Positions 3,724-51,982 of a stretch of DNA of 57,763 nucleotides are shown in pieces. Below the pieces are notes generated by a model that ran no database searches, had not been told where the DNA came from, and saw only the letters and a program-made list of their open reading frames with translations. The position numbers and the translations under genes were made by a program. Positions within the stretch are counted from its first letter, which is position 1; every line of letters begins with the position of its first letter. Origin of the DNA: a virus; the IMG/VR virus record IMGVR_UViG_3300045988_077974. One strand, given 5' to 3'.

Positions 3724-3756
3724 TAAAAAAAGGGGGGGCATATGCCCCCTTTTGAT
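3724..3756. terminator. Bidirectional terminator between the convergent CI-like and endolysin genes
   Basis: Perfect palindrome GGGGGCATATGCCCCC (3734-3749) flanked by an A-run and a T-run. Confidence 0.75.
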
Positions 3757-3757
3757 T

Positions 3758-4552: not shown

Positions 4553-4554
4553 TT

Positions 4555-4668: not shown

Positions 4669-4669
4669 A

Positions 4670-4945
4670 TTATTCACCTCCAATAATGGATGCAAGTTCA
4701 TCAATTGCAGATTCTATTGCACTTAATCTTTCTTCTGTTGTTGGTTCTATATAGTCCGTAGATTGTGAGTTTTTAATATCATTCAACACATCATTGTCTA
4801 CAATCAACATTTTTTTGTCTTTGTCGTATTTATACGCAAAGAGATCAGATACCGATTCTACAGATGGCATTTCTTCTACTTCCACAATATTTTCTGCATC
4901 TTTTTCTGCATAATAGCCCTTATTATCAATTCCTATTTTATACAT
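4670..4945 (-). CDS. Hypothetical tail-fibre-associated protein
   Basis: ORF track. Tightly packed between the fibre and lysis genes. Confidence 0.55.
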   Translation of the reverse strand: MYKIGIDNKGYYAEKDAENIVEVEEMPSVESVSDLFAYKYDKDKKMLIVDNDVLNDIKNSQSTDYIEPTTEERLSAIESAIDELASIIGGE

Positions 4946-4960
4946 ATTAAATTTCCCTCC

Positions 4961-6067
4961 TTAATTTATTTGAAGTAAACTAATCGTAAAGCTACCACTT
5001 TGACTGTTAATCCATCCGCTTCCGCTTACCGTTAATGTATATCCGCTAACTGAATTGCTTGCAAAATTTTGATCTAATGCGCGACATAGATTTCCGTCAT
5101 AACCATATAAGATTCCTCTTACAATTCCAGTCGTGGGACTTTGTGGGTTATATTTACAACTGCCATAAAAAACAGCTATCCAAAATTTATTTTTCGGAAG
5201 AGAAACCGATGCACTTCCATTATTACTTTCTTTCCTTTCTATCGTTTTTGCGTATCCCCAATCATTTACTATTGAATCTGTTACCTTATTATTTTCAAAT
5301 TTTTCATACAAAACTTTATTTTGAACTGGGTTTTCGCTAGTGCTTGAAAGCTCAGTATCTATAGTTATATTTGCAATTTTTTTGGCTTGTTCTGAATAAT
5401 ACTTTGCGTTGTCTGTATCTTCCCCATCTCTGATACCGCTCTTCCCAACTGCGTAAGATTGTGATAATTTAGCGTCTGTTAATGCATTGCTTTCGCTTGT
5501 AGATGCATTTTCAGCACTGCTACTTGCGGATTGTGCTTGTGCAGTTATATTAGATAAATAATTTTGTTCTAAATATTCATCTGTAATACTTCCTTTTAAA
5601 ATATCAGCATTTACAGCAAAACTTCCATCTGCATTTTCGATTTTTTCAAAACGAATCCTTTGACTATTATTAAAATTGTAAGTAGGAATCATGCTTCCAA
5701 TATTAGCTTGCCATTCGGTTCCGTCTTCCGTTGTCATTACAAGCACTCCGTTGCTATTCAAGGAAAATGATACTGGTATTTTTTCGATGTTAAAATCAAT
5801 GCTAAAACTTGTTCCGTCAAAAAACTTAAAAGTCAAAATCCCTGTTTCAGCATCCCATGTAGGCGTTTCTGAAAGTAATTTATTTGCCGAAGATTTGTCA
5901 AGCTTTTCAATGCTAAATCCATTGTATACGACATCCATAATTTCACACAATTTTTTTATTGTATTGTCCATTTTGTTTAAATTGTTTTTATCAATAGGCG
6001 TCTTAAGGCTTTCTGATCTGTTTTCCCATCCAACGGGATAATAAATAATTTTTTCGTAATTATCCAT
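4961..6067 (-). CDS. Tail fibre / receptor-binding protein candidate
   Basis: Position after the tail tip gene. Ala/Ser/Gln-rich coiled segment AQAQSASSSAENASTSESNALTDAKLSQSYA, typical of phage fibres. Confidence 0.6.
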   Translation of the reverse strand: MDNYEKIIYYPVGWENRSESLKTPIDKNNLNKMDNTIKKLCEIMDVVYNGFSIEKLDKSSANKLLSETPTWDAETGILTFKFFDGTSFSIDFNIEKIPVSFSLNSNGVLVMTTEDGTEWQANIGSMIPTYNFNNSQRIRFEKIENADGSFAVNADILKGSITDEYLEQNYLSNITAQAQSASSSAENASTSESNALTDAKLSQSYAVGKSGIRDGEDTDNAKYYSEQAKKIANITIDTELSSTSENPVQNKVLYEKFENNKVTDSIVNDWGYAKTIERKESNNGSASVSLPKNKFWIAVFYGSCKYNPQSPTTGIVRGILYGYDGNLCRALDQNFASNSVSGYTLTVSGSGWINSQSGSFTISLLQIN

Positions 6068-6078
6068 ATTCTTTCCTC

Positions 6079-8901
6079 CTAAACTCTAGCCCAGTATCCA
6101 TAATTTATCCTGTAATATTGCCCTTGTGTTTCTATATCTGTATGATATACCATTATTTCTTGTAAAGATGGAATAATAGAAACTCCTAAAACGTAAAATT
6201 CACAAGAATCAAAATCTCCATTTGTTGCATTCGCAGGCATATCTGTTATAATTCCTGGGGTGCTTATTCTTAAATACGCATGCTCATTTGAATCATTACC
6301 TGAATACACATTTACAACTGTTCCTGTAACATATTTCATATTATTCAAAATTATAGAATCCGTTTTGATTGAAGGTGTTGATATTCCTTTTGAAACTTCT
6401 ACTATATCACCATTTTCTTCAACGGTTGTTGATTCTCCGAATTGAAATTTACCACAATCTGTAACAAATTTTGGCAATGGGTTAAAGTCTCCATCATATC
6501 CTCCATTCTCTATCTTTACATTAGCAGTTATTACTTCTTGCTTTGCAACTCCCATCCTTGTTGTGTATTCAATTTTTTCAAAAACCAACTCACCTTTTGA
6601 TATTCCACAAGAAATTCCCTCTTTAAATGTTTCTGTTTTTGTACCTCCATTCCCATCTTCTATTTCTAAAGATTTGTCAGTATGGTCAGAACAAGATATT
6701 TCACCTCCACTACTAAGAGAAACCTCACTCCATTGTACACCATCTGGTATTTCTTCTTGAGTTACATCATACCATTTTGCTTCTCCTTCTATAACAATAT
6801 ACTGATAAAGCCTACTATTTTCAGTATCAAAATAATGTGCCCCCAAAGTTGCAAGAGTAAAATTAGGTGCTCCTTGTCCGATATATTCAATATTTTGACT
6901 TTCTAAATAATTATTTCTTAGAAGTATTAATCCTTCTTCGTTTGATGCTGTTTGAAGATTTATTTTTCCTCCTGTCACATCTATTGATTTTGCAACAACC
7001 TCTCCGTCAGAATTAACAGAAAAAAGCTCGCTAATTATGTTAATTTTATTCGCTGTAAGGTTTATTGTTTTTCCCGAAATAATGTTTAATATATCTTCTG
7101 CTGTAAAATCAATATTATCTGCGGTTAATTTTATGTAATTTTTCCCGGAATCGGCATCAACACCAAGTTCAACACTTACTATTTTCCCGTTTTTATCTAC
7201 TTTTAAAACGATTTCAGAGGCAAATTGTTCAATTGAAGATTCTAATTTTTCTACGCTTTCTTCTGCCTGTCCTATTTCTTTCCAAGAACCGCTTGGATTG
7301 GTCTTTTGGTAAATTTTGCCATCCGAAACATTGAGATAATAGTCTTTTTTTGAAGAAAACCAAAGCTTTGGCGTAGGCAATCCATAACCGTATTCGTAAG
7401 AATCCGCATTTTCTACATACCATTTTGATTGAGAAGAAGAAACCGTACTGCTTATTTCCTCTGCCGTTTGTTCTATAGATGTTTGCAATGTTTTTTTCGA
7501 GGAATTTGCATCTTCTTTTGTTTCGTATGTTTTTGAAACAGAAGATATTATTTCTTCTGCTGTTTGCTCTATATTACTTTGAAGTTTTTCTTCTTCTTCT
7601 GTAGCTCTTTTTACTTCTGTTGTGATTTGCTCGGCAGTTTGTTCAAATCTTGAAGATGTATTTTCACCGAGATTTTTTATATCCACAGACAACCCATCAA
7701 TAGATTTTTTTATTTCAAAACTTTTGCCAAGTAATTGTATGATTTCATCACGGCTTGTTGTCTCATTTGCCATTATTTTATTTCCTTTTGCCGTAAATTC
7801 ATCTTTTAGCCCTTGTATTCCGCTTAATGTCCTTGAAAAAACAAACGCTGTAACAGTATCTCTATTTTTCACTAAAGAATATGAATCTCCCAAATCAATA
7901 AATGGCAAGCCGTATAATTTTGTTGTGTTTGGTCTATATACTATATTCCTTATTTCGTTATGAATTGATTTTCCGATGGTTTTTAATTCTTGTTCGGATT
8001 TTCCGAAAAGTAAAAAATTAGAGGATATAACATAAGGATTGCTTTCATCGCTGTTTGATGAAACTCCGATATCGCTAGATGAAGATTTTATTGTTACGCA
8101 TGTAATAGGCATGGTTTCATATTCTTCATATTTTGTTTCAATGTATTGTAACCCCTCTGATTCAGAATCCAAAAACTCGACATTTGATTTTTCCGGGTAT
8201 AAATCTTCTGATGGATAAAGGTTGAAATCCGGATATATTCCAGATACTTTTACCGCTTTTATCTCATTAAATTTACCATATCGGTCAATATATCCAAAAG
8301 AACCATTTATTTCGCATATATATTTTAAAAGTAAAGCACCTGTAACTGTTCCTTTTCCCATTTCTACAGTCTTTTCAATATATATATCGTCATTTGCAAA
8401 TTCTCCACCGGAAAATTCTATCCCAAAATGTTTTAAAAGTTTTGAGCGAAATTCTGACAATTTAATTTTTTCATTTTCAGAAAATATATCGTTATAAAAA
8501 TCTGAAATATCTTCTGAAACGTCATAAAGCACATCATATGCAGTTATTTTCTTATAATCCTTATCATCTACGCATTTTGCACTATCGACACGATATACAC
8601 CCATAGGGACGGTTAAAACGATGTTGCCGTCTGAATCTTCCACATCCATATAGCACTTAAACTCAATTTCTGTAATGTCTTTATCCATAATTTCAGAAAC
8701 TTCAAATTCAAGCGAAGATGCAATACATCCACCTAAGACTAATTCCGAATCGCTACAGATAGATTGAGTAATTGTGACACTTTCTTGGTGAATTGTTTCG
8801 TTGTCAATCGTCAAGTTAATATCATCAAAAACCATCCGGTATCCCTTGTAATATCCGGACGAATAAAACATAGCTTTTTGTTCGTCTGTCAGATTAAGCA
8901 T
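6079..8901 (-). CDS. Tail tip / Tal-like minor structural protein (940 aa)
   Basis: Size and position (second gene after the tape measure). Central coiled-coil with repeated IEQTAEEI(S/I)S units. The N-terminal region resembles the prophage-tail family. Confidence 0.65.
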   Translation of the reverse strand: MLNLTDEQKAMFYSSGYYKGYRMVFDDINLTIDNETIHQESVTITQSICSDSELVLGGCIASSLEFEVSEIMDKDITEIEFKCYMDVEDSDGNIVLTVPMGVYRVDSAKCVDDKDYKKITAYDVLYDVSEDISDFYNDIFSENEKIKLSEFRSKLLKHFGIEFSGGEFANDDIYIEKTVEMGKGTVTGALLLKYICEINGSFGYIDRYGKFNEIKAVKVSGIYPDFNLYPSEDLYPEKSNVEFLDSESEGLQYIETKYEEYETMPITCVTIKSSSSDIGVSSNSDESNPYVISSNFLLFGKSEQELKTIGKSIHNEIRNIVYRPNTTKLYGLPFIDLGDSYSLVKNRDTVTAFVFSRTLSGIQGLKDEFTAKGNKIMANETTSRDEIIQLLGKSFEIKKSIDGLSVDIKNLGENTSSRFEQTAEQITTEVKRATEEEEKLQSNIEQTAEEIISSVSKTYETKEDANSSKKTLQTSIEQTAEEISSTVSSSQSKWYVENADSYEYGYGLPTPKLWFSSKKDYYLNVSDGKIYQKTNPSGSWKEIGQAEESVEKLESSIEQFASEIVLKVDKNGKIVSVELGVDADSGKNYIKLTADNIDFTAEDILNIISGKTINLTANKINIISELFSVNSDGEVVAKSIDVTGGKINLQTASNEEGLILLRNNYLESQNIEYIGQGAPNFTLATLGAHYFDTENSRLYQYIVIEGEAKWYDVTQEEIPDGVQWSEVSLSSGGEISCSDHTDKSLEIEDGNGGTKTETFKEGISCGISKGELVFEKIEYTTRMGVAKQEVITANVKIENGGYDGDFNPLPKFVTDCGKFQFGESTTVEENGDIVEVSKGISTPSIKTDSIILNNMKYVTGTVVNVYSGNDSNEHAYLRISTPGIITDMPANATNGDFDSCEFYVLGVSIIPSLQEIMVYHTDIETQGQYYRINYGYWARV

Positions 8902-29346: not shown

Positions 29347-29418
29347 CTAGGGTACCCGGATTCGAACCGGGAAGTCTGGGAACCAAAATCCCATGCCTTA
29401 CCATTTGGCGATACCCCA
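29347..29418 (-). tRNA. tRNA-Gln (anticodon UUG)
   Basis: Minus-strand sequence TGGGGTATCGCCAAATGGTAAGGCATGGGATTTTGGTTCCCAGACTTCCCGGTTCGAATCCGGGTACCCTA-G. Full cloverleaf drawn by hand: U1:A72, G73, anticodon loop UUUUGGU, T-loop TTCGAAT. No encoded CCA. Confidence 0.88.
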
Positions 29419-32404: not shown

Positions 32405-32588
32405 TATCGTTATATTATTATATAATGTTATCGTTATTTTGTCAAGCATTTTGAAGAACGGTATCTTATAGCATTATCGTTATATTATTATATAATGTTA
32501 TCGTTATACATATTGCACAATAAATAATATAATGTTATCGTTATATTTGTGTGGTTTGTCTATTGAAATCATATAACGATAGCGTTAT
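32405..32588. repeat. Iteron array: six TTATCGTTAT-type sites, including a 33-bp direct repeat and one inverted pair
   Basis: Sites at 32405-32413, 32428-32437, 32474-32483, 32498-32507 and 32535-32544, plus the inverted pair ATAACGAT/AGCGTTAT at 32573-32588. The unit tatcgttatattattatataatgttatcgttat occurs at 32405-32437 and 32475-32507. Confidence 0.9.
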
Positions 32589-32779: not shown

Positions 32780-32932
32780 ATGACATATCAAATCAAAATC
32801 ACGGGTAGCATTTACAACGAAGATTACACCTTCACAGATCCGGCAGAGGGATCTATCAGGGAAGAGGTTGAGGCCATTCTTGAGGATATGGCAAACGGCA
32901 ATATTGACAGTCTGGAAATGTCAATCAAATAG
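32780..32932 (+). CDS. 50-aa ORF (MTYQIKITGSIYNEDYTFTDPAEGSIREEVEAILEDMANGNIDSLEMSIK)
   Basis: Hand translation. AAGGAGGG RBS 7 nt upstream. Confidence 0.55.
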   Translation: MTYQIKITGSIYNEDYTFTDPAEGSIREEVEAILEDMANGNIDSLEMSIK

Positions 32933-32976
32933 CAAGACCGGCAGGCGGTTCTGGGGTTCAATTCCCCGGCTTGCTT
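32931..32976 (+). ncRNA. tRNA-like minihelix (acceptor-like stem plus canonical T-arm, no D or anticodon arms)
   Basis: AGCAAGA-ccggcaggcggtt-CTGGGG-TTCAATT-CCCCGG-CTTGCT. Followed by GC-rich hairpins ACGCTC..GAGCGT and CACCGCGGGA..TCCCGGTG up to the RBS of 33066. Confidence 0.35.
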
Positions 32977-33065
32977 TACCCGATAGCCGAAACGCTCAAT
33001 TCCGGAGCGTCCACCGCGGGATGGTCTCCCGGTGCTGATGATGGCAGACCAGAAAGGGAAATATT

Positions 33066-33515
33066 ATGAATACAATTAAATTACAAGGAATTTACAGCAG
33101 ACAGAAAGCAATACCGGCGGCAGATCTTAAGCCGGGAATGGTTACAACTTGGAATTATGGTTATACTGAGACAGTTAAAAGCGTAGAGCCTACCAAGAGC
33201 GGTAAAAGCGTTAAATGCGTTATCATCTCAAACGAAAGCGGAACTGAATGCGTACGAACAATGAGAGCTGATAGGCTTGTAGGAGTTAAAGAGGAAGAAC
33301 CAAAAACCCCTATTGACAAAGCACTAGAAAATAGGACTAAAACATACAGCGGGATTTATAGCGATGTCGGCACAGCCTTAGAAGCTTTCAGCACTTCGGA
33401 GCTTGCGGAATATTATATACAGCGTTTCGGCGATAGTGCATTACGATATTTTCTTGAGCAGGGAATAATTTCCGCAGAAATCAACGCAGAGAAAGAGAAA
33501 AGAGAAATTTGTTAA
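33066..33515 (+). CDS. Hypothetical protein
   Basis: ORF track. Plus-strand island. Confidence 0.6.
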   Translation: MNTIKLQGIYSRQKAIPAADLKPGMVTTWNYGYTETVKSVEPTKSGKSVKCVIISNESGTECVRTMRADRLVGVKEEEPKTPIDKALENRTKTYSGIYSDVGTALEAFSTSELAEYYIQRFGDSALRYFLEQGIISAEINAEKEKREIC

Positions 33516-33563
33516 TTTTCACACGCCCCGGAGTAATCCGGGGATGGGCAGAAAGGAGCTAAA

Positions 33564-33719
33564 ATGGATAAGATAGTTAAATGGCTTATATCTTGCGGAT
33601 ATAATGAAAGAGAAGCTGTAAAAGAAGCAAATAAAATGATTGAGCAGAACAGATGGGACGGAGTAGAAAAATGCTCAAGGGAATTCGCTATAAATATGAT
33701 TTTAGAGAATTTAGAATAA
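33564..33719 (+). CDS. 51-aa ORF (MDKIVKWLISCGYNEREAVKEANKMIEQNRWDGVEKCSREFAINMILENLE)
   Basis: Hand translation. AAAGGAG RBS. Followed by a terminator. Confidence 0.5.
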   Translation: MDKIVKWLISCGYNEREAVKEANKMIEQNRWDGVEKCSREFAINMILENLE

Positions 33720-33726
33720 TTTGAAT

Positions 33727-33752
33727 AAGGGGCGAAAGCCCCTTATTTTTTT
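33727..33752 (+). terminator. Rho-independent terminator (GNRA tetraloop)
   Basis: AAGGGGC-GAAA-GCCCCTT followed by a T-run. Confidence 0.85.
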
Positions 33753-33878: not shown

Positions 33879-34583
33879 TTATTCGTTCCGGATCTGCTGC
33901 CCATCCTTGCACCCCCTTAATTTTTGCGTCAGCTCCTGTCCGAAGCTGTCAAGGTATATTACTTCTGTCGTTTCTTTCGTTCCTGTCTCTATCGGTCTAC
34001 CCACCACCAGAACCCGGAACGGCTCCAACCGCCGGACCATTTCGCGGAATCCTGCTATATAGCAATGCTTTCCGGCATCCGTAAAACAACGGTTTGTGCT
34101 GACTATTAGCGTGCTGTGTATTGGCAGACCGTCAAAACAAAAGTCGTATGTATCCGCAGATCCCCAACCAACAACCGGTATCACGTCCATACCGTTTAGC
34201 GTCAGCCACCAAGACAACGCCCGCGATCGGTATGCCTGGTATATCTGCAACGCTACCGGCATATCATCGTAAAAACTGAAATCAACACCGGCGATGTATT
34301 TGAAATTGCCAAGCATATCAAAATATTTCTGTGGATTGTTCCATAGACGCTCAAACAAATTATCGTCTATGAAGAAATGACACAGGCAGTCTGCCGGATG
34401 CTTTTCTTTCGATGCTGAATTAAACGGAACTGGTCGCAATCCGTCTGCGGATGCATTTATCGGTGGCAACTGTGGAAATTCATATTTACCGACCAGATCC
34501 GCACCGTAAATAAAACGCTCACGCAAAACATCATCTTTCGTGTTCACGCAGATTCCGTTCGTGTTGTCGAAGTTATTGACCAT
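33879..34583 (-). CDS. DUF4417-family protein (independent transcription unit)
   Basis: FIDDNLFERLWNNPQKYFDML..F.YIAGVDFSFYDDMPVALQIYQAYRSRALSWWL..NGMDVIPVVGW matches the DUF4417 pattern. Start at 34583 behind GAGGTG (track start 34616). Confidence 0.7.
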   Translation of the reverse strand: MVNNFDNTNGICVNTKDDVLRERFIYGADLVGKYEFPQLPPINASADGLRPVPFNSASKEKHPADCLCHFFIDDNLFERLWNNPQKYFDMLGNFKYIAGVDFSFYDDMPVALQIYQAYRSRALSWWLTLNGMDVIPVVGWGSADTYDFCFDGLPIHSTLIVSTNRCFTDAGKHCYIAGFREMVRRLEPFRVLVVGRPIETGTKETTEVIYLDSFGQELTQKLRGCKDGQQIRNE

Positions 34584-34691
34584 ATCGTTGCACCTCACTT
34601 TCGTCATTTTGCACAATGTGCGTCGTGTACTTCAAATTATAAATTGTGCAAAAAAACATAAAATGCATTTTAATTTACATTTTATAAATGT

Positions 34692-34796: not shown

Positions 34797-34958
34797 CTAC
34801 AATAACATATTTCTAACATTTTTGCAAGTATTATTTTCTGCGGTCATAATCAGAGAACGTGAAGCATACCCGTTTACTGATAATTCTTTGACCAATTTCT
34901 CCTCTGTAATATCCGGATTCGTCCGGCGAACGTAGTCAAGTAGCTGTTTAATATCCAT
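34797..34958 (-). CDS. 53-aa ORF (MDIKQLLDYVRRTNPDITEEKLVKELSVNGYASRSLIMTAENNTCKNVRNMLL)
   Basis: Hand translation. Its start overlaps the stop of 34958..35278 (TGATG). Confidence 0.45.
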   Translation of the reverse strand: MDIKQLLDYVRRTNPDITEEKLVKELSVNGYASRSLIMTAENNTCKNVRNMLL

Positions 34959-35278
34959 CACGCAACCCTCCTCATAGACGATAGCAACATATCAACGATT
35001 TCAAAGACTTCCGCCCCGTATGTTGCTACAAAATCACATAAAACTTCTTCCTGCTCAAGCGGCAGATAAATGTCATAACTAAGGCAAATGGCGTGACATA
35101 TTTCGTGAGTAAGCACTTTTCTGAAAAATCCACCTTTTACAAGGCTAGAAATGTAAATTTCGTGAGTATTGCTGTCGGTAACACCGATGCTCATAGTGCC
35201 ATCACTCCGAAGCAGCCGGTAATCATCCGGTGGAACAATCACAACATCCCATGCCGTATCATTGATCGTAAACATCAC
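34958..35278 (-). CDS. Small zinc-metallopeptidase-like protein (HExxH)
   Basis: VLTHEICHAI motif, with an overall layout like SprT/ImmA-type minimal metalloproteases. Confidence 0.55.
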   Translation of the reverse strand: MMFTINDTAWDVVIVPPDDYRLLRSDGTMSIGVTDSNTHEIYISSLVKGGFFRKVLTHEICHAICLSYDIYLPLEQEEVLCDFVATYGAEVFEIVDMLLSSMRRVA

Positions 35279-35293
35279 GCCATCACCTCACTG

Positions 35294-35917
35294 TCAAATT
35301 TTAGAAACCAGTGTTGAAAGCTTGTTTCTAAGTAAATTCTTTTCTTCTGCCGTCATATCGTGCATAAGCTTTGTCACATCTCCGGTAATCTCTTTCATAT
35401 AGCTGTCAAGAGACTCCATCTTTTTCTGCTTATCCTCCGGCGTGTCAGCCTTGTGCATATCTTTTGTTTCCGTGTAATGACGTTTTGCACGGTCGTAATT
35501 GCTTTCTTTCATTTCCGGACGGTTCATGCCAGTGTCGGTGTAATGCATTTTACCATCGTGTCTATCCATATCACGATCCCACTCCGGATCCGTATGGTAA
35601 TACGGCGGTTCATCATATCCCCTGCGTGTACCCCTGCCCTTTGGAGCGAATCTTCCGTCAGCGTAGCGGTAGTGGTCATAGTATCTTCTGTCCGGATAAT
35701 CTTCGTACTGTTCAAGCATACGCATGATATCTTCGTTATCTTCTGACTTTTCCATAGCTTCAACAATTCTGTAATCCTTATCAAAGCAAACTATGTTCTT
35801 AGCTATTTCTGTAAAATCCTTTAAATCGTCAAGGTTTTGCCCTTCAAAGCTATCTAATCCGATTGCTTCAACCTTAGCCTTGACACATTCCATAATCTGT
35901 TTAGCCCATTTATGCAT
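35294..35917 (-). CDS. Hypothetical Tyr/His/Asp/Arg-rich protein
   Basis: Low-complexity core YYDHYRYADGRFAPKGRGTRRGYDEPPYYHTDPEWDRDMDRHDGKMHY. No family recognised. Confidence 0.6.
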   Translation of the reverse strand: MHKWAKQIMECVKAKVEAIGLDSFEGQNLDDLKDFTEIAKNIVCFDKDYRIVEAMEKSEDNEDIMRMLEQYEDYPDRRYYDHYRYADGRFAPKGRGTRRGYDEPPYYHTDPEWDRDMDRHDGKMHYTDTGMNRPEMKESNYDRAKRHYTETKDMHKADTPEDKQKKMESLDSYMKEITGDVTKLMHDMTAEEKNLLRNKLSTLVSKI

Positions 35918-35921
35918 AATA

Positions 35922-36341
35922 TCAAGCCTCCCTTACTGCAATCAAATTGCTGTTCTGAACCTCAATAGCTTGTGCTGACGTATTCTGCACGGCAACAGTG
36001 CTACAGCAACCGCAAGGAACGTCAATATAAGCCTGTGCGGAGACATTAAAGAAATTTTCTACAGCCGCAGGAGTGACAATCATCCGTGTTGCCTGCAATG
36101 GCTCTCCGTCTACTGCAATGGCAAGGGAAATGGCTTCCACCGTACCACCTGTAGGTATCTGAATATTGCCACTGTAAGAAACCAAAAACCTAGCCCTGCA
36201 TTGATTGGTTATTCCTCTAAGCTTAATAATTCCGCTTCCCTGTCTGTGGACTATACATTTGGTTCCGCATACTGGCGTTTCTGTAAATGCAACATCCTCT
36301 CCGGCGGCAACTGTTTGCAACGCAATTCCTGTTATTTCCAT
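35922..36341 (-). CDS. Beta-rich protein resembling the BclA C-terminal (C1q/TNF-like) domain
   Basis: Start at 36341 behind GAGAGG. The pattern QTVAAGEDVAFTE....GSGIIKL...G.FLVSYSGNI......ISLAIAVDGEPL...V.....NF.NVSAQAYIDV......V.N.S resembles BclA-CTD-like jelly rolls. Recalled from memory, weak. Confidence 0.35.
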   Translation of the reverse strand: MEITGIALQTVAAGEDVAFTETPVCGTKCIVHRQGSGIIKLRGITNQCRARFLVSYSGNIQIPTGGTVEAISLAIAVDGEPLQATRMIVTPAAVENFFNVSAQAYIDVPCGCCSTVAVQNTSAQAIEVQNSNLIAVREA

Positions 36342-36464
36342 AGTTTTTACCTCTCTTTCACAAAATAAGGGCAAACATTACAGTCTGCCCTTTGATTCAA
36401 AAGTAATACTGCTTAGCAGACATAATCGAGTTAAACTCAATTAAGATACTCAATTATTTAGTTG

Positions 36465-37256
36465 TTAGCAGTTACAACCCGTATTACATCCGCAACCATA
36501 AGCATATGCGTTAGGATTAGGAACGACATACGCCGGAACAGCTGTAGGATTTACAGAATTGATAATCTGCTGCGTCTGTGCATTCATTGCAGTTGTCAGA
36601 AATGCGGACTGGCGATCCTGCGAAGCTGCTCTGCGAAGATCATTGTTCTCTGCCTGCAGGGTAGAGATTTTTTCCTGGCAAAGGTAATCAAGGATTGCAC
36701 GGGTGCCAGCATTCTGGCTGTCAATGATGTCTCTGGTGTTGTTATTCATTGTGTTCTGTAAAGCACATGCGTTTTGAGCTGCATTGTAGTTTACACCTTG
36801 AATAGCCTCTCTTACATCACAGCAGCAACTAGCAATCTGCGACTGTAAAGCATTTGTGTTTTGCATATTTGCCACAGTATCGGCGTTAATAGCCTGCTGA
36901 ATTCCGTACCCGGTCTGCATTACATTGGTGTTAATGCCATTAAACCCAGTAAGCATACCGTTATTCATAGCATAAAAACCATCACACAAACCGTTGTTGA
37001 TTCCGTCAAGCTTTCCGATGATAGACTGTGTATCAAATCCTCTCTGAATTGCACTGTCTGTGTATGCGGCTGCTGTAGATCCCATTCCGCCGCCATTGCC
37101 GCCCCAGCCGTTACCGCCGAAGCTGCCCCAGCCAAAGATCATAGCGAAGATGATAATAGCCCACCAGCCATCACCGCCCCACATACCATCATTATTCCTG
37201 TTGTTTCCTGTCACTGCCGCAATATCGGCAAGACTTGGTGAATTTCCATTAAACAT
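36465..37256 (-). CDS. Membrane-anchored Gly/Trp-rich, Gln/Asn-rich, Cys-rich protein
   Basis: WGGDGWWAIIIFAMIFGWGSFGGNGWGGNGGG TM/Gly region, Q/N-rich helical core with CC/CCC motifs, and C-terminus YGCGCNTGCNC. Confidence 0.7.
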   Translation of the reverse strand: MFNGNSPSLADIAAVTGNNRNNDGMWGGDGWWAIIIFAMIFGWGSFGGNGWGGNGGGMGSTAAAYTDSAIQRGFDTQSIIGKLDGINNGLCDGFYAMNNGMLTGFNGINTNVMQTGYGIQQAINADTVANMQNTNALQSQIASCCCDVREAIQGVNYNAAQNACALQNTMNNNTRDIIDSQNAGTRAILDYLCQEKISTLQAENNDLRRAASQDRQSAFLTTAMNAQTQQIINSVNPTAVPAYVVPNPNAYAYGCGCNTGCNC

Positions 37257-37325
37257 TTTGGTTTACCTCCGTAAATTTATTTACATCGGGTAACCGGTCT
37301 TTTTGTGCGCACGACCCAAAATGTA

Positions 37326-37565
37326 TCAATGTTTGTTAAACATACCCATAACTTGTTGTTTGGCTTGGTCTACCGTAATTCCACGCTCTTTGCACATATT
37401 TTCAGCCATATTCTGCAAGCCCCTCGTATCTCCGTTTTGATACATTTTCATGGCGTTTTGTGCAAGCGGATTGTTTTGAACATTAGGATTGTTTTCAATT
37501 ATGCTTTGAATTGCCTGCTGCGGATTTCCGCTTGTCATCATTTGAATAATGTTAATTGGGTTCAT
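37326..37565 (-). CDS. Hypothetical Gln/Asn-rich small protein
   Basis: ORF track. Overlaps the stop of 37562..38077. Confidence 0.55.
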   Translation of the reverse strand: MNPINIIQMMTSGNPQQAIQSIIENNPNVQNNPLAQNAMKMYQNGDTRGLQNMAENMCKERGITVDQAKQQVMGMFNKH

Positions 37566-38077
37566 TCAGCATCACTCTCCTTTTTGGTTGAAGATCTTGT
37601 GCTTTTCGCTGTATTTTTTGTTAATGACGATTCAATGGACGATATTTTGCTTTCCAATTCATCAAATCGTTTCATAAACGCCCCTGTAACATCGTCAGAT
37701 AGCCCTATTTCAAGTTTTTTACCATCATCCATAGGATTTACACCATCCGTCATCGAAACAGGCTTAAAAACGACAGTATCAAGAGTGCCGTTGCTGTTCC
37801 AAGCCTTGACATAGATTTCTGATAAGTCCTGTTTTGGAAAAAATGCCGGGGATCCGGTCATTGGTACGTCCTGTGGAGCTATATCTTCTATTCTTCCGAC
37901 CATTTTACCTACCATACCGGACATCGGTGCTGGTTGTTGTACTTGCTGTGGTTGCATCTGTTCTTGCGGCAACCTCTGTTGTACGTTTTGCATCGGATTG
38001 TATTGATAAGCGTTAAATTCCGGACTATAAGTCATAGTCGGAGCCTGCTGATATGTCTGATACGGATTCATCTGCAT
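37562..38077 (-). CDS. Hypothetical protein with a Gln/Pro/Tyr-rich N-terminus
   Basis: MQMNPYQTYQQAPTMTYSPEFNAYQYNPMQNVQQRLPQEQMQPQQVQQP... GAGGAGGG RBS. Confidence 0.6.
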   Translation of the reverse strand: MQMNPYQTYQQAPTMTYSPEFNAYQYNPMQNVQQRLPQEQMQPQQVQQPAPMSGMVGKMVGRIEDIAPQDVPMTGSPAFFPKQDLSEIYVKAWNSNGTLDTVVFKPVSMTDGVNPMDDGKKLEIGLSDDVTGAFMKRFDELESKISSIESSLTKNTAKSTRSSTKKESDAE

Positions 38078-38201
38078 TTATTTCGCCCTCCTCCAAAACT
38101 TCGTCTATTGCCTTCAAAATAAGGGACAGCGTAACAAGGTCAACACGCTTCATTACTGTTTCATTCCCGAAAATACGTTCTCGCATTGCGTCTGTAATCA
38201 T
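38025..38201 (-). CDS. Hypothetical small acidic protein
   Basis: Start at 38201 behind AAAGGAGGGAACGG. The track start 38258 would run through a terminator hairpin. Confidence 0.45.
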   Translation of the reverse strand: MITDAMRERIFGNETVMKRVDLVTLSLILKAIDEVLEEGEINADESVSDISAGSDYDL

Positions 38202-38233: not shown

Positions 38234-38262
38234 TAAAAAAAGAGATGTGAATTATCACATCT
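38234..38262 (-). terminator. Rho-independent terminator downstream of int/attP
   Basis: AGATGTGA-(4-nt loop)-TCACATCT followed by a U-run on the minus strand. Confidence 0.7.
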
Positions 38263-38320
38263 TTATCAATTTTTTATCATTGCATAGGGCTTTTTGAATT
38301 ATTTTTTTAGTATTTTGTTT

Positions 38321-38582
38321 ATGTACCAATCTATGTACCAATCGTGTACCAATTTTTGTTAAATTATGAAAATATATGATTAAATTCGTAAATGTTAGGT
38401 AATTTTGAAATGCTGTATTTTCAATGCATTGAAACAATTTGAGCAATTATGTAAAATTACGCAAAAATCCAATGTACACAAACTTTACATTTGTGTTAAA
38501 ATTCAATTAAATATTGGAAACAACTGAAAACACTGCATTGCAATATACTACGTTCTTAATTATGTACCAATTATGTACCAAT
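38321..38582. promoter_or_regulatory. Probable attP: integrase arm-type repeats flanking a core region
   Basis: ATGTACCAAT at 38321-38330, 38333-38342, 38562-38571 and 38573-38582, and GTGTACCAAT at 38344-38353. 14-bp palindrome TTCAATGCATTGAA at 38420-38433. Directly 3' of int. Confidence 0.55.
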
Positions 38583-38583
38583 T

Positions 38584-39708
38584 TCAAACAATGTTAATTG
38601 CATCCCCTACCTTGAAAAGTTCCTCTATACCATAATCATCTCCCGGTGTGACATACAGATCAAGTGTTGTTGATATTTTTTGATGCCCCATAATTCTTTG
38701 CAGTGCTTTCGGGTTCATCCCAGCTTGTATGCACCGTGTGGCGAAAGTGTGTCTTAATAGATGCATTGATATGTTTCGTAGTCCGTTTGTCTTACAAACA
38801 TAAGCTATTCTTGTCGATAAACAAAATCTAGGTATACAGCTTCCGTCTGAATTTTTAAAAACCAAATCACCATATACTATGTTTGTAGCATATCCTTTTT
38901 GAGATTTTTTTACAATCCGTAGTATCCTTAACGCTTCCGTTGTCAATGGTATATTTCTTTTTCCGGCTTTCGTTTTTGTTTCGCCTAAAAACCAGCTATT
39001 ATCATTTTTATCTTGAATCAAGCTTCTATTTACCGACAAAGTATTATTTTCATAGTCTATATCGGACCACTTCATGCCAAGAACCTCTCCAACTCTCAAT
39101 CCTGTTTGCAGTACGAATCTGAATATATATTCGTATTTTCCTCCGGTTATTGCTTCTACAAATATTTTTTGCTCATTTTTGCTCATGGCAATCCGTTCAC
39201 GTTCTTCTTTTCCTGTTAATTTAACAGTTTTTCCGCACGGATTTTCTTTTAAAACCTTATTTTGCACTGCATAATCAAACATATTTCCCATTATAGCCTT
39301 TACGATATCTTCTGTTTTATTGCTCATTCCTGCATCTGACATATCATTAAGAACTCTTTGGCACGTTAATGGTATTATTTTTTTAATTTCAACATCTCCT
39401 ATTTTTGGCTTTATATGTTTTTCGTAATTAAAAGAATAAATATATAATGTCCCCTGCTTAACAGTCCTTCTTTTCATATCAATCCATATTTCATACCATG
39501 AATTAACCGTCATATTGTCTGGTTGCTCAATATCGCTATGTTCATTATGGTATTTACTATCAGCAACCCATTTCTGGCATTCTCGAACATTACGAAACAA
39601 TTTCTGCCTACGTTTACCAAATCTATCGGTATATCTGCCAACATAGTAACCGTCCTTTCTTTGAGATATACCCTCTCCAAGCTCCTTGCCTTTCAGACTT
39701 TTTCCCAT
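38584..39708 (-). CDS. int: Tyrosine integrase
   Basis: C-terminal catalytic region ...GLRVGEVLGMKW...HLLRHTFATRCIQAGMNPKALQRIMGHQKISTTLDLYV (R..HxxR..Y). Confidence 0.92.
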   Translation of the reverse strand: MGKSLKGKELGEGISQRKDGYYVGRYTDRFGKRRQKLFRNVRECQKWVADSKYHNEHSDIEQPDNMTVNSWYEIWIDMKRRTVKQGTLYIYSFNYEKHIKPKIGDVEIKKIIPLTCQRVLNDMSDAGMSNKTEDIVKAIMGNMFDYAVQNKVLKENPCGKTVKLTGKEERERIAMSKNEQKIFVEAITGGKYEYIFRFVLQTGLRVGEVLGMKWSDIDYENNTLSVNRSLIQDKNDNSWFLGETKTKAGKRNIPLTTEALRILRIVKKSQKGYATNIVYGDLVFKNSDGSCIPRFCLSTRIAYVCKTNGLRNISMHLLRHTFATRCIQAGMNPKALQRIMGHQKISTTLDLYVTPGDDYGIEELFKVGDAINIV

Positions 39709-39781: not shown

Positions 39782-40180
39782 CTACAATTCAACATTTTCC
39801 TCGATGTATTTTTCAAAGGATTTTCTTTTAATCAATCGTTTCTTGCCGACAAAAACAACAAATCCGCATCTCGGATTATTGGACAGCTCACGGATCTTGT
39901 GGATTCCTATGTTGCTATATGCTGCTGCTTCCTCTATAGTCAGCGTAACTTTCTCCCAGATTGGTACTTCCTTTGTTTTCATATAATCGCCACCTATCTT
40001 CTTTTTAATACTTTCTATCCTCCTGCTAACCGTTGCTGTTGATATTGCGTGTTCAAATGCTATCTGTTCCAGACTTTTCCCTTTTGATAGCATTTTAAAC
40101 ACATATTCTTCATCTTCTGTTAAATTGGCGTTTTCAAGTATCTCTTCAAGTTCTGGCTTAGTCAGTTTCGATAACTTCAT
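39782..40180 (-). CDS. xis: Excisionase-family DNA-binding protein fused to (or preceded in-frame by) a sigma70-region-4/LuxR-like HTH
   Basis: The C-terminal half LTIEEAAAYSNIGIHKIRELSN....FVVFVGKKRLIKRKSFEKYI is an excisionase/MerR-type HTH. The N-terminal half EEYVFKMLSKGKSLEQIAFEHAISTATVSRRI is region-4-like. An internal ATG (MKTKEV...) could give a separate Xis. Confidence 0.7.
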   Translation of the reverse strand: MKLSKLTKPELEEILENANLTEDEEYVFKMLSKGKSLEQIAFEHAISTATVSRRIESIKKKIGGDYMKTKEVPIWEKVTLTIEEAAAYSNIGIHKIRELSNNPRCGFVVFVGKKRLIKRKSFEKYIEENVEL

Positions 40181-50066: not shown

Positions 50067-50957
50067 CTACGCCTCCTCCGCTTTCATAAATTCCGGCAAA
50101 TCATCGTTTTCCTCCGCTGTCGCATCGTCAACATCGGTCGCAACGCTGTCGATAACGTCTGATTCGTCAAAATCAACGCTGTTTGCGTTCTGCTCAATAT
50201 CGTACTCGACATCTTTCTCGATCATTTCCTGCTCACTGACAACATTCAAATCGTCAATGTCGATCTCTGTGCCGGTATGCGAATTGTTGATATATTTCAG
50301 AAGCCGGTTTTTCACCGTTTTCATTGCCATCTGATCCGGAAACTTCTGGTGAGTTCCATTTCCATTCTCTTTGTATCCGTACCCCTGCTGCCAAGACTGC
50401 TTAATCTGATCCATCGTCATTACTTCCGAAATAATTTCCCCGTCATCCATAACAGCCACGGCATAAGCACCAATAATGTTATCATTGCTCATATTTTCAA
50501 AGGACTGCTCGTGAGAATCAATCACCGTCTTTGCGTTTTCCTTATGAAATTTGAAGATATCGCCTTTATAAATCACAGAAGCATTGATATCTTTCAGCCC
50601 AAAACGTCTCGCAATGCAGGTGTTTCCGTAAACGGAACGCTGACATTGTAATTTACCGCCATATGCGACTGGATAGCACTGCTTCTTTCTCATAGAAAGA
50701 CCGTCAGTGACCATTTCAATAAGGGCGTTTTCAATACTTGCTCTGCTGCAACTTTGCAAAACAGGCTTTTTATTTCTGTCAGTAGTCTCCTGTAAAATAA
50801 GCATTGCCGACATAAACTCATTGGTATAGTTGTAATCTTTCGGAAACGTCAAACCGAATTGCTCTTTCTGCTTGATCTTTACGACCATTCCCTCTGTGAA
50901 ATCTTTTGCAACCAGTTCTTTGCTTTCTGCTTCTTTAATTTCATTCTCCATAGTCAT
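50067..50957 (-). CDS. recT: RecT-family single-strand annealing protein
   Basis: MRKKQCYPVAYGGKLQCQRSVYG...IIGAYAVAVMDDGE...MTMDQIKQSW is a typical RecT core, with an acidic tail. Confidence 0.85.
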   Translation of the reverse strand: MTMENEIKEAESKELVAKDFTEGMVVKIKQKEQFGLTFPKDYNYTNEFMSAMLILQETTDRNKKPVLQSCSRASIENALIEMVTDGLSMRKKQCYPVAYGGKLQCQRSVYGNTCIARRFGLKDINASVIYKGDIFKFHKENAKTVIDSHEQSFENMSNDNIIGAYAVAVMDDGEIISEVMTMDQIKQSWQQGYGYKENGNGTHQKFPDQMAMKTVKNRLLKYINNSHTGTEIDIDDLNVVSEQEMIEKDVEYDIEQNANSVDFDESDVIDSVATDVDDATAEENDDLPEFMKAEEA

Positions 50958-51982
50958 TCCTCACTTTCAAATAATTCTTTTACATATAAATCCATTGAAT
51001 AACAAAGTTTTACGCAATTTCCGTGTAATGCATGATTTTTCCAGGAATTGTACTTCTCATAAAACTTCTTTTCTATCATTCTTCCAGATTTCACAAGCTT
51101 TACCCATGTTCTAATCTTCTTGCGGATTTTACGTTTATTCGATCCTGTAAGTTTTCTTATGTATTTTCCGTCTTTCGTAATGTAATGATGAAAACCGGTA
51201 AACAGTATCCCGTTTTTAAACGGCAATATTTGCGTTTTCCCATTCAGCGACAATCTGAGACTGGCAACAAATTCCCTTATGCAGTCAAGGCACCACATCA
51301 AATAACCTTTATCTTGGTGGATTAAGTAGAAATCGTCCATATATCGTCCGTATAGTTTTATACCTAATTCTCCGGTAATAAAACGATCTAACCCGTTAAG
51401 CGTCAACAAAGCATAAACCTGTGCAACTTGGTTTCCAAGCGGAAGCCCCAAACCATCTGTGCTGTCTATAAACAAATGATTTAACCACTTCACATATTCG
51501 TCTGTAAAATGATAGTCTACAATGTCTTTCAAAACCTCATGATCTATCTGGTAGAAAAACTTCGTAATATCACATTTAAGAATCCAACCATTAAGACCAT
51601 GCTCTCTGTAAAACTCAAGCATTTGATCTCTTAGACAATCCATTCCGAAATGAGTTCCTTTTCCTTTCTGCCCTGCATAATTGGTTTTGATAAACTCGCT
51701 TTCCAATCTCGGATGCAATATGTTGTCGCACAGACAATGTTGAACAACTTTATCCTTAAAAGAACACGATTTAATCACTCTCTCCTTAGGTTCATAGACC
51801 TTAAATTCATTGTACGGATTCATCCGGTATGTCTGATTTTCAAGCTGTTCTTTTAAAAGATGCAATCCCTCAAGGCTCATTGTCTGAAATTTTGCACTGC
51901 TGCCATTGAATTTTTTACCATATTTAGCTTTCTTATAAGCCTTATACAGATTTTCATAATCACAAATAATATCTTTATCCAT
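50954..51982 (-). CDS. DGR-type reverse transcriptase
   Basis: 342 aa. RT motifs ...ILKCDITKFFYQIDH..., GLPLGNQVAQVYA (resembles the DGR [IL]GxxxSQ motif) and GRYMDDFYLI. Sits directly 3' of a TR whose copies differ at adenines. Confidence 0.9.
   Translation of the reverse strand: MDKDIICDYENLYKAYKKAKYGKKFNGSSAKFQTMSLEGLHLLKEQLENQTYRMNPYNEFKVYEPKERVIKSCSFKDKVVQHCLCDNILHPRLESEFIKTNYAGQKGKGTHFGMDCLRDQMLEFYREHGLNGWILKCDITKFFYQIDHEVLKDIVDYHFTDEYVKWLNHLFIDSTDGLGLPLGNQVAQVYALLTLNGLDRFITGELGIKLYGRYMDDFYLIHQDKGYLMWCLDCIREFVASLRLSLNGKTQILPFKNGILFTGFHHYITKDGKYIRKLTGSNKRKIRKKIRTWVKLVKSGRMIEKKFYEKYNSWKNHALHGNCVKLCYSMDLYVKELFESEE

What the first reader, a model, noticed from the sequence alone, without database searches (positions are those of the whole stretch)
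35294..38201. Cluster of low-complexity Cys/Gly/Gln/Tyr-rich proteins next to int-attP (possible cell- or spore-surface conversion module)
Between attP and the metallopeptidase gene lie six co-oriented genes:
- a small acidic protein;
- a protein with a Q/P/Y-rich N-terminus;
- a Q/N-rich 79-aa protein;
- a 263-aa protein with a Gly/Trp-rich TM region, a Q/N-rich core with CCC and CC motifs and a YGCGCNTGCNC end;
- a beta-rich protein reminiscent of the BclA C-terminal domain;
- a Tyr/His/Asp/Arg-rich 207-aa protein.

The block is set off by terminators (38234-38262 and about 36382-36407). Compositionally these proteins resemble spore-coat and exosporium proteins of Firmicutes (Cys-rich CdeC-like, BclA-like, Tyr-rich coat proteins). 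The attP-proximal position is where lysogenic-conversion genes usually sit.

This rests on composition only. I recognise no family with confidence.
Basis: inference. Interest (0 to 1): 0.65.

Follow-up and report, generated by a model that had tools for sequence, protein, structure and literature searches.

The report
Widespread unknown gut-phage membrane protein cassette
The six odd-composition genes are real, but they are one copy of a very common, uncharacterised phage gene cassette that also occurs in phages of bacteria that make no spores, so it is not a spore-surface module.

Summary
Six co-oriented minus-strand genes (38201-35294) lie between a confirmed attP and a small HExxH gene. Their composition is extreme, and the beta-rich protein does model as a BclA-CTD/TNF/C1q-like jelly roll.

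The interpretation does not hold. The genes form a conserved cassette: a small GerE/sigma-region-4-type HTH, g2, g3, g4 and g5. A small acidic g1 and an R/D/Y-rich g6 are usually present and an HExxH gene often is. The g4 and g5 families each have at least 8,000 90%-identity clusters in gut metagenomes.

The cassette is att-proximal here. In other phages it lies after the lysis genes, between the portal and scaffold genes, or after recombination genes. Homologous g2-g5 occur in Butyrivibrio phage Ceridwen, seen only in lytic growth. The centrepiece g4 has clear homologues in crAss-like phages, a Bacteroides phage and predicted archaeal viruses.

No Pfam, NCBIfam, PADLOC or PDB sequence match explains g1-g6.

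Best guess, at low confidence: a self-regulated accessory module that builds a membrane-anchored, cysteine-cross-linkable assembly in infected cells, late in infection. In it g4 would be the anchor and stalk and g5 a trimeric head.

The parts
39782..40180 (-). g0: in-frame fusion of a GerE/LuxR/sigma-region-4-type HTH (residues 1-65) and a Tn916-type excisionase (residues 66-132). The HTH half is the regulator-like gene that precedes the cassette in other phages.
   Evidence: Pfam Tn916-Xis 9e-24 and GerE 8e-7. NCBIfam sigma70-ECF region 4e-5. Free 67-73 aa homologues lie upstream of the cassette in L002, L003, L010, L011, L013, L017 and L039. Ceridwen has a similar small HTH-like ORF in that position, assigned by eye only.
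38584..39708 (-). Tyrosine integrase. This is context, not part of the cassette. It is replaced by a serine recombinase in L002 and is absent between the HTH and g1 in L003.
   Evidence: Pfam Phage_integrase 1.6e-25.
38263..38583 (.). attP region. TTGGTACA arm-type repeats lie at 38563-38581 (two copies) and 38322-38352 (three copies).
   Evidence: 5 copies, 1.3 expected, all here. Prophage junctions L030/L031 compared with the free form L029.
38235..38262 (-). Hairpin plus T-run just upstream of g1. It is followed by the conserved element TTTTTTTATGC(A/C)AAAAT(T/G)TAAT and the RBS, and probably insulates the cassette from upstream transcription.
   Evidence: The same architecture, with different stem sequences, is seen in L001, L002, L003, L007, L016 and L017. 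Identical in L029-L031.
38025..38201 (-). g1: 58-aa acidic protein (pI 4.1).
   Evidence: Homologues in L001, L002, L003, L007 and L017.
37562..38077 (-). g2: Q/P/Y-rich N-terminus, a small conserved middle domain (ANDVPMxGSxAxFPKxDxSEIYxKxWNAxGT), a coiled-coil-like stretch and a basic S/T/K tail. Belongs to phrog_21718.
   Evidence: 4.7e-10; alignment; only coiled-coil noise in the PDB; Ceridwen homologue 1e-29.
37326..37565 (-). g3: 79-aa Q/N/M-rich helical protein.
   Evidence: The positional counterpart in Ceridwen hits phrog_22984; the window g3 did not hit that family, so no family is assigned to g3.
36465..37256 (-). g4: the centrepiece. It has a short acidic N-tail, a W/G-flanked hydrophobic anchor (about residues 31-45), a Gly/Asn linker, an N/Q/A-rich helical region with indels in blocks of about 11 residues, a conserved Cys triplet (third Cys invariant), the motif DYLCQEKI..LQAEN, a Pro-rich segment and a C-terminal GCGCNxGCxC cluster. 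Belongs to phrog_16490.
   Evidence: (helical, pLDDT 48).
36357..36392 (-). Terminator-like hairpin between g4 and g5; a possible attenuator that would make g4 the most abundant product.
35922..36341 (-). g5: 139-aa single-domain TNF/C1q/BclA-CTD-like jelly roll. C29, C48 and the C112-C113 pair are conserved. Belongs to phrog_20016.
   Evidence: (pLDDT 81, pTM 0.77).
35294..35917 (-). g6: helical ends with an R/D/Y/H-rich middle. The N-terminal 65 aa are swapped in close relatives, while the rest is 100% identical.
   Evidence: Compositional counterparts in L010, L013, Ceridwen, cr53_1 gp67 and C3_41T2LP.
34958..35278 (-). g7: 106-aa HExxH protein (phrog_1233). It often, but not always, follows the cassette.
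   Evidence: Weak motif-level match to the PolyVal-type metallopeptidase that follows the cassette in C3_41T2LP (E 0.003).

Best explanation
The block is one copy of a mobile, self-contained accessory cassette of phages of gut and rumen anaerobes.

Shown:
- A small GerE/sigma-region-4-type HTH gene precedes a conserved gene string g(1)-g2-g3-g4-g5-g6, often followed by an HExxH gene.
- The string occupies different genome positions in different phage backbones.
- It occurs in temperate phages and in phages seen only in lytic growth.
- g4 is conserved from phages of Bacillota to crAss-like and Bacteroides phages and to predicted archaeal viruses.

Inferred mechanism:
- g4 is a single-pass membrane protein. 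Its Lys-poor, N/Q-rich helical domain oligomerises as a coiled-coil-type stalk, and its conserved Cys triplet and C-terminal Cys cluster allow thiol or metal cross-links.
- g5 is a trimeric TNF/C1q-like jelly-roll 'head' with conserved cysteines that docks on g4.
- g2, g3 and g6 are low-complexity, coiled-coil partner or scaffold proteins.
- None of g2, g3, g5, g6 or g7 has a strongly hydrophobic segment in the hydropathy scan. The assembly would therefore form on the cytoplasmic face of the host membrane, under control of the cassette's own HTH.
- It would form mainly late in the lytic cycle, acting on the envelope at or around lysis and egress. It would not remodel a spore surface.
For: Conserved synteny across 30 or more loci, with variable placement.

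Large families: at least 8,000 90%-identity clusters for g4 and for g5, and 848 50%-identity clusters for g5, the 150 listed being 80-196 aa, so single-domain size.

g4 architecture is conserved across phyla. The hydropathy maximum is only in g4. g4 models as long helices at low monomer confidence, as expected for an obligate oligomer.

g5 is a TNF/BclA-CTD fold.

Late context:
- In crAss-like cr53_1 the g4 homologue lies between holin/LysB-like genes and tail genes. It and its neighbours carry in-frame TAG codons like the structural and lysis genes. A review describes such recoding as typical of late genes (PMC10136315).
- In L018-L023 and L010 the cassette lies between the portal/minor-capsid and scaffold/capsid genes.
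- In Ceridwen, CPD1 and L013 it follows the endolysin and holin genes.

Ceridwen was seen only in lytic growth. A terminator-like hairpin after g4 suggests that g4 is the major product.
Against: No experiment and no homology supports any function. The topology of g4 is not established, because there is no positive-inside signal. The hydrophobic segment is short, about 13-15 residues.

Only g4 is demonstrably homologous across phyla, with the HExxH gene weakly so. The Bacteroides and crAss 'g5-like' and 'g2-like' neighbours show no profile similarity to g5 or g2.

In this window the cassette lies at the end of the early/integration region, 26 kb or more from the CHAP endolysin, and at a prophage end. 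That is a classic moron position.

Physical interaction among the products is inferred from synteny only.
Confidence: 0.35

Rival explanations
1. Lysogen-expressed conversion or exclusion module (moron). From its own promoter the prophage makes a membrane-anchored g4/g5 complex that changes the cell envelope, for example by blocking DNA entry or adsorption of other phages.
For: The cassette is att-proximal in the window, L001, L002, L013, L017 and L029-L031. It is insulated by a conserved hairpin and T-run. It has its own HTH gene. Its variable placement is typical of morons. Single-pass membrane proteins are typical superinfection-exclusion effectors (general knowledge).
Against: It is present in Ceridwen, seen only in lytic growth, and in crAss-like phages. 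It is embedded in late blocks with TAG recoding. Five or six conserved genes are many for an exclusion function. No PADLOC hit. No convincing conserved sigma-A promoter was found.
Confidence: 0.22
2. Virion-associated proteins: fibre, decoration or ejection proteins made late and carried on or in the particle, with g5 as a glycan- or receptor-binding knob.
For: The g4 homologues in crAss-like and Bacteroides phages are annotated 'spike protein/glycoprotein' or 'outer capsid protein/viral fiber'. TNF/C1q-like knobs are common on phage fibres, as the BFVD matches to collagen/C1q proteins show. The cassette lies inside morphogenesis blocks in L018-L023 and cr53_1. The Lys-poor composition would resist gut proteases (inference).
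Against: Those annotations are automated. The cassette lies outside the structural module in this window and in C3_41T2LP. g5 is unusually conserved (83% identity in L010, where g4 is 45%), unlike receptor-binding proteins. g4 has a membrane anchor. A dedicated HTH and low-complexity partners are not expected of virion parts.
Confidence: 0.13
3. One reading: lysogenic conversion of the spore coat or exosporium. The products would assemble in the mother cell on the forespore under a GerE-like regulator.
For: g5's best solved-structure matches are spore-surface proteins: F-BclA, BclA CTD, ExsFA and BxpB. The Cys-, Tyr- and Gln-rich composition, the lack of export signals and a GerE-type stand-alone HTH all resemble mother-cell coat genes. 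The hosts of this lineage are Lachnospiraceae, and Oscillospiraceae for related loci; many members of these families carry sporulation genes (general knowledge).
Against: Homologous cassettes occur in phages of Butyrivibrio. g4 occurs in crAss-like and Bacteroides phages and in archaeal viruses. The cassette occurs in phages seen only in lytic growth. No Pfam or NCBIfam coat, exosporium, GerQ or BclA_C hit. No collagen-like stalk or exosporium-targeting N-terminus in g5. No sigma-E or sigma-K-like -10 (CATA...) was seen upstream of g1, g4 or g5 (by eye).
Confidence: 0.05

Closest known systems
BclA C-terminal domain, ExsFA/BxpB and F-BclA (Bacillus exosporium TNF/C1q-like jelly rolls)
   Same: The g5 model superposes with TM 0.65-0.73 (Foldseek E 8e-7 to 5e-5). 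It has the same size, about 140 aa. ExsFA and BxpB are likewise stand-alone single-domain proteins that work with Cys-rich partners (ExsY/CotY; general knowledge).
   Different: Sequence identity is 10-16%. There is no Pfam hit, no collagen-like repeat and no exosporium-targeting N-terminus. The gene is phage-borne, and Ceridwen, which carries a g5 homologue, infects a non-sporulating host. EDA and 4-1BBL (TNF ligands) and phage C1q-like knobs match about as well.
Type II membrane TNF-family ligands (e.g. EDA-A1): anchor, stalk and trimeric jelly-roll head
   Same: The overall logic is the same: an N-terminal membrane anchor, an elongated stalk and a TNF-fold head. EDA-A1 is among the best structural matches of g5.
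   Different: Here the anchor/stalk (g4) and the head (g5) are separate genes. The stalk is helical, not collagenous. Association between the two is only inferred, and there is no sequence relationship.
Two-component spanin, i-spanin subunit (lambda Rz, P2 LysB)
   Same: An N-terminal transmembrane segment followed by coiled-coil helices with cysteines. The cassette is adjacent to lysis genes in several phages.
   Different: There is no o-spanin lipoprotein partner. The hosts of this window are monoderm. cr53_1 already has a LysB-like gene next to its holin. g4 is much larger and carries a Cys-cluster tail.
Cys-rich exosporium and coat morphogenetic proteins (C. difficile CdeC/CdeM, Bacillus ExsY/CotY) and Tyr-rich coat proteins (CotC/CotU/CotG)
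   Same: Compositional resemblance of g4 (Cys clusters) and g6 (Tyr/Asp/Arg-rich), and the lack of signal peptides.
   Different: No sequence similarity was detected. g4 has a membrane anchor and homologues in phages of non-sporulating hosts.
Phage morons and lysogenic-conversion cassettes next to att sites
   Same: Att-proximal here, bounded by a terminator, variable in location, and accessory to the backbone.
   Different: Five to seven genes conserved as a unit across very distant phages, including phages seen only in lytic growth, and often embedded in late operons.

Membership tests
BclA_C / C1q / TNF jelly-roll superfamily (g5) | Ten-stranded jelly-roll fold of about 130-150 residues | tested here: met
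   AF2 model with pLDDT 81 and pTM 0.77. Foldseek hits to 9h38, 1wck, 2z5w, 7r5i, 8d02 and 1rj7 with TM 0.65-0.75.
BclA_C / C1q / TNF jelly-roll superfamily (g5) | Sequence membership in the Pfam families BclA_C, C1q or TNF | tested here: not met
   No such hit at E<=1. No PDB sequence hit at E<=10.
BclA-type exosporium nap protein | Collagen-like GXX repeat stalk and N-terminal exosporium-targeting motif on the same polypeptide | tested here: not met
   g5 is a 139-aa single domain. All 150 listed representative clusters are 80-196 aa.
BclA_C / C1q / TNF jelly-roll superfamily (g5) | Homotrimer | not testable with these tools
   Only a monomer prediction was possible.
Spore coat / exosporium proteins (CdeC, CdeM, ExsY/CotY, GerQ, CotC/G) | Sequence homology to a coat or exosporium family | tested here: not met
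   Pfam and NCBIfam scans of g1-g7 return nothing relevant.
Spore coat / exosporium proteins | Restricted to endospore-forming hosts | tested here: not met
   g2-g5 occur in Butyrivibrio phage Ceridwen. g4 occurs in crAss-like phages, a Bacteroides phage and predicted Methanomassiliicoccales viruses.
Spore coat / exosporium proteins | Mother-cell (sigma-E / sigma-K / GerE) promoter and expression during sporulation | tested here: inconclusive
   No CATA-type -10 was seen upstream of g1, g4 or g5 by eye. A GerE-type HTH is present. Expression cannot be tested.
Lysogenic-conversion moron | Located next to att at a prophage end | tested here: met
   True for this lineage, but not for L010, L018-L023, L026 or L027.
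Lysogenic-conversion moron | Own promoter and terminator; expressed from the repressed prophage | tested here: inconclusive
   An upstream terminator-like hairpin is conserved. The candidate extended -10 elements are weak. Expression is not testable.
Lysogenic-conversion moron | Carried by temperate phages only | tested here: not met
   Ceridwen was seen only in lytic growth and judged virulent by its authors. The crAss-like phage cr53_1 also carries g4.
Two-component spanin (g4 as i-spanin) | Partner outer-membrane lipoprotein gene embedded, overlapping or adjacent; diderm host | tested here: not met
   None of the adjacent products g3, g5 or g6 has a hydrophobic, signal-like segment. The hosts of this lineage are Lachnospiraceae.
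Holin | Small membrane protein (usually under 150 aa) next to the endolysin | tested here: not met
   g4 is 263 aa with one hydrophobic segment. The CHAP endolysin lies at 3758-4552.
Known anti-phage defence systems | Match to a PADLOC-DB model | tested here: not met
   No hit for g1-g5, g7 or DUF4417. g6 has only a 0.019 chance-level hit.

The most novel reading that the evidence does not exclude
The cassette encodes a previously unrecognised virus-made structure, shared by tailed viruses of Bacillota, Bacteroidota and gut methanogens. It would be a membrane-anchored, coat-like lattice or fibre made of g4 stalks, TNF-fold g5 trimers and Gln/Tyr/Arg-rich matrix proteins. The structure would assemble inside the infected anaerobe and become cross-linked through its cysteine clusters, for example on exposure to oxygen at lysis. 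That would make it a viral analogue of spore-coat or exosporium assembly, affecting egress or survival of the progeny.
Probability: 0.1. Interest if true: 0.85.

Novelty: categorically new. Interest (0 to 1): 0.6.

Why it matters
The g4 and g5 families are among the commoner unknowns of the gut virome: each has at least 8,000 90%-identity clusters, and some clusters hold hundreds to more than a thousand member sequences. g4 crosses from Clostridia phages to crAss-like and Bacteroides phages and to predicted archaeal viruses. A multi-gene unit kept together over that range, carried with its own regulator and moved between genome positions, should do something general in the biology of anaerobe phages. 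Cultured phages that carry it (Butyrivibrio phage Ceridwen, C. perfringens phage CPD1, Bacteroides phage C3_41T2LP) make it testable. The result also warns against reading spore-coat-like composition and a BclA-like fold as evidence of spore biology.

Tried and rejected
Sequence searches that gave nothing useful for g1-g6:
- Pfam, NCBIfam, PADLOC and PDB, by single sequence and by profile.
- PHROGs gave only families of unknown function.

Structure prediction of g4 from a 92-sequence diverse alignment failed to give a usable model (pLDDT 48). No fold search was run on it.

Profile-profile tests found no similarity between the Bacteroides/crAss/CPD1 beta-proteins and g5, or between the Bacteroides/crAss 'g2-like' proteins and g2. 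Only g4 is claimed as homologous across phyla.

Other ideas dropped:
- That the phage tRNA-Gln(UUG) serves the Gln-rich module. g4 and g5 mostly use CAG.
- That the TTGGTACA repeats are operators of the cassette's HTH. Two copies by int and three on the far side of the crossover fit integrase arm sites better.
- Searching for relatives that lack the cassette, by anchoring on int and on DUF4417. Only cassette-bearing close relatives were found.

Literature searches for the PHROG numbers, DUF7841, and prophage with exosporium or TNF-like proteins found nothing relevant.


Full report
**1. What is in the sequence**

The window is a temperate siphovirus-type genome. It has a terminase, an SPP1-type portal, an E-type major capsid protein, a 1,477-aa tape measure, a CHAP endolysin, a CI-like repressor, a Bro/ANT antirepressor and a tyrosine integrase.

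Six co-oriented ORFs lie on the minus strand between the integrase (38584-39708) and a 106-aa HExxH gene (34958-35278), exactly as described:
- g1, 38201-38025
- g2, 38077-37562
- g3, 37565-37326
- g4, 37256-36465
- g5, 36341-35922
- g6, 35917-35294

g1 and g5 start at ATGs behind good ribosome-binding sites.

Their composition differs strongly from 46 other genes of the window. g4 has 13.7% Asn, 12.2% Gly, 12.2% Ala and 3.8% Cys, but only 0.8% Lys and 1.1% Glu, against a background of 9.8% and 8.0%. g3 is 30% Gln+Asn. g2 is rich in Gln and Pro. g6 is rich in Asp, Arg, Tyr and His. g4 has the only strongly hydrophobic segment of the block (residues 31-45), a CCC at 144-146 and four cysteines in its last nine residues.

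Terminator-like hairpins lie just upstream of g1 (38262-38243) and between g4 and g5 (36392-36367).

**2. attP**

All five TTGGTACA octamers of the 57.7-kb window lie between int and g1: two next to int and three nearer g1, spaced 11-12 nt apart (0 of 100 shuffles reach five).

A near-identical free phage form (L029) has Xis-int-g1. Near-identical prophages (L030, L031) have the host ribose operon (rbsR, D, A, C, B and ribokinase) directly upstream of g1. Phage and prophage sequences coincide only from about 250 nt upstream of g1. In a lysogen the block sits at one prophage end, co-oriented with the host rbs genes and separated from them by the hairpin and T-run.

**3. The block is a conserved cassette, not a local oddity**

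g4 and g5 each return at least 8,000 clusters at 90% identity from gut metagenomes, all unnamed. g5 has 848 clusters at 50% identity; the 150 best listed are 80-196 aa, i.e. single-domain size. They belong to PHROGs 16490 and 20016, and g2 to 21718, all of unknown function.

In prophages of Lachnospira, other Lachnospiraceae, Eubacterium, Oscillospiraceae and Ruminiclostridium the order g1-g2-g3-g4-g5-g6(-g7) recurs.

A 67-73-aa GerE/LuxR/sigma-region-4-type HTH gene precedes it. In this window that HTH is fused in frame to a Tn916-type excisionase (g0).

Between the HTH and g1 there is a tyrosine integrase here and in Dulem virus 39, a serine recombinase in L002 (a different 1.6-kb insert, not examined, in L039), and nothing in L003. 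The integration module is therefore an insert into the cassette's neighbourhood, not its partner.

**4. Position varies**

- In L013 the cassette follows the holin and endolysin genes and ends at the prophage border.
- In L010-L012 and L018-L023 it lies between the portal/minor-capsid genes and the scaffold/major-capsid genes.
- In Butyrivibrio phage Ceridwen it follows the endolysin.
- In C. perfringens phage CPD1 it lies downstream of the lysis genes.
- In the crAss-like phage cr53_1 the g4 homologue lies between holin/LysB-like genes and tail genes.
- In Bacteroides phage C3_41T2LP it follows recombination genes.

HNH-type endonuclease genes sit in or beside the cassette in three of these phages. 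That offers a plausible route for its spread; this is inference.

**5. Host range of the family**

The Ceridwen proteins hit the same PHROGs as g2, g4 and g5. Its authors saw only lytic growth and judged it virulent (PMC7372960). Its host, Butyrivibrio fibrisolvens, is non-spore-forming by general knowledge.

g4 of cr53_1 and of C3_41T2LP share the whole architecture with the window protein: the W/G-flanked anchor, the CCC, the SASQ...Q motif, the RPxPVPAY segment and the GCGC tail. tblastn also finds the family in viruses assigned to Methanomassiliicoccales.

The neighbours of g4 in the Bacteroides and crAss phages look analogous: a Cys-bearing beta protein, a beta-plus-coiled-coil protein, an R/D/Y-rich protein, a DUF7841 protein as in L013, and an HExxH protein. 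Profile comparison does not show them to be homologous to g5 or g2. Only the HExxH gene gives a weak motif-level match. Cross-phylum homology is therefore claimed for g4 only.

**6. Structure**

g5 models confidently (pLDDT 81, pTM 0.77) as a jelly roll. Its best solved matches are the F-BclA tip domain, EDA-A1, the BclA C-terminal domain, ExsFA and BxpB (TM 0.65-0.75, 10-16% identity). Among viral models the best matches are small uncharacterised phage proteins and collagen/C1q-type fibre knobs. But g5 has no collagen repeat, no Pfam membership, and TNF ligands fit about as well.

g4 did not give a usable monomer model even with 92 diverse sequences (pLDDT 48). It is predicted to be helical, with helices of about 40-50 residues. 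The family shows insertions and deletions in blocks of about 11 residues. Both points fit an oligomeric coiled-coil-type protein; this is inference.

g5 is often far better conserved than g4 between phages, for example 83% against 45% in L010. That argues against a fast-evolving receptor-binding role.

**7. Timing**

In cr53_1 the g4 homologue and its two downstream neighbours contain in-frame TAG codons, as do the flanking lysis and structural genes. A review describes such recoding as a feature of the late transcription unit of crAss-like phages (PMC10136315). Together with placement inside or after late operons in several lineages, this points to late lytic expression, at least there.

In this window the evidence is ambiguous. 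The hairpin and T-run upstream of g1 are conserved in architecture across loci with different stem sequences. They are followed by a conserved TTTTTTTATGC(A/C)AAAAT(T/G)TAAT element and the RBS. I could not identify a convincing conserved promoter or any sigma-E or sigma-K-type motif.

**8. Interpretation**

The spore-surface reading fails one of its own refutation tests for homologous cassettes (non-sporulating hosts) and has no sequence support. It keeps a small probability for this particular host.

Known defence systems, holins and spanins also fail membership tests.

What remains is an uncharacterised, self-regulated accessory cassette. Its products look like a membrane anchor and stalk (g4), a trimeric TNF-fold head (g5), low-complexity partners without export signals (g2, g3, g6), and often a small metalloprotease.

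I commit, at about one chance in three, to a membrane-anchored and cysteine-cross-linkable assembly. It would be built on the cytoplasmic face of the membrane, mainly late in infection, and would act on the envelope around lysis and egress. The main rivals are a lysogen-expressed exclusion or conversion module and a virion-associated fibre or decoration set. Each step beyond the gene content, fold and distribution is inference.

**9. Verdict**

- Observation: confirmed.
- Interpretation: partly supported for position and fold, not supported for function.
- Novelty: the object is real, very widespread, and unlike any characterised system I could test.
- Interest: moderate to high as a target for experiment, with cultured phages available.

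Noticed in passing
window 29347-29418 (-): The phage carries a tRNA-Gln (anticodon UUG). The Gln-rich cassette mostly uses CAG (g4: 16 CAG, 3 CAA), so no link to the cassette is evident.
   Followed up: partly
window 39782-40180 (-): g0 is an in-frame fusion of a GerE/LuxR/sigma-region-4-type HTH with a Tn916-type excisionase. In other phages the HTH is a free 67-73-aa protein directly upstream of the cassette.
   Followed up: partly
window 38322-38352 and 38563-38581: Five TTGGTACA direct repeats, the only copies in the window, flank the attP core and are likely integrase arm sites. The core region of the window differs from that of the otherwise near-identical phage L029, so the integration site may differ (L030 and L031 are integrated next to host rbsK).
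   Followed up: partly
window 32417-32445 (-) and 32780-33719 (+): A perfect TTGACA-17-TATAAT promoter faces a short divergent plus-strand gene set that ends at a strong bidirectional terminator (33723-33748). This may mark the start of the late operon or a second switch region.
   Followed up: no
window 50954-51982 (-): A reverse transcriptase gene (RVT_1, 2e-14) lies in the early region. Whether it belongs to a diversity-generating retroelement or a defence element was not examined.
   Followed up: no
window 33879-34616 (-): A DUF4417 gene (PHROG 'nuclease') with its own good extended -10 promoter (34720-34692) follows the cassette here and in Dulem virus 39.
   Followed up: no
L024 8157-8951; L025 5122-5745; L027 4006-4626; L010 8858-9682: HNH/I-HmuI-like endonuclease genes are inserted within or beside the cassette in three cultured phages, and a PAPS-reductase-like gene in one prophage. 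The endonucleases may explain the mosaic spread of g4 and g5.
   Followed up: no
L018 17613-18713; L021 17068-19421: Related phages carry Acb2/Tad1-hairpin, Tad2-like and Sequestin-type Pfam hits (anti-defence sponge families) among their head-tail genes.
   Followed up: no
window 35294-35917 compared with L036 2629-3252: In close relatives the first 65 or so residues of g6 are replaced by an unrelated helical segment, while the R/D/Y-rich remainder is 100% identical. The 'disordered-looking' part is therefore under strong constraint.
   Followed up: partly
L026 (crAss-like cr53_1) 2907-8886: In-frame TAG codons occur in the holin, LysB-like, g4-like, structural and reverse-transcriptase genes, but not in gp67 (the DUF7841-like, RGG-rich protein).
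   Followed up: partly
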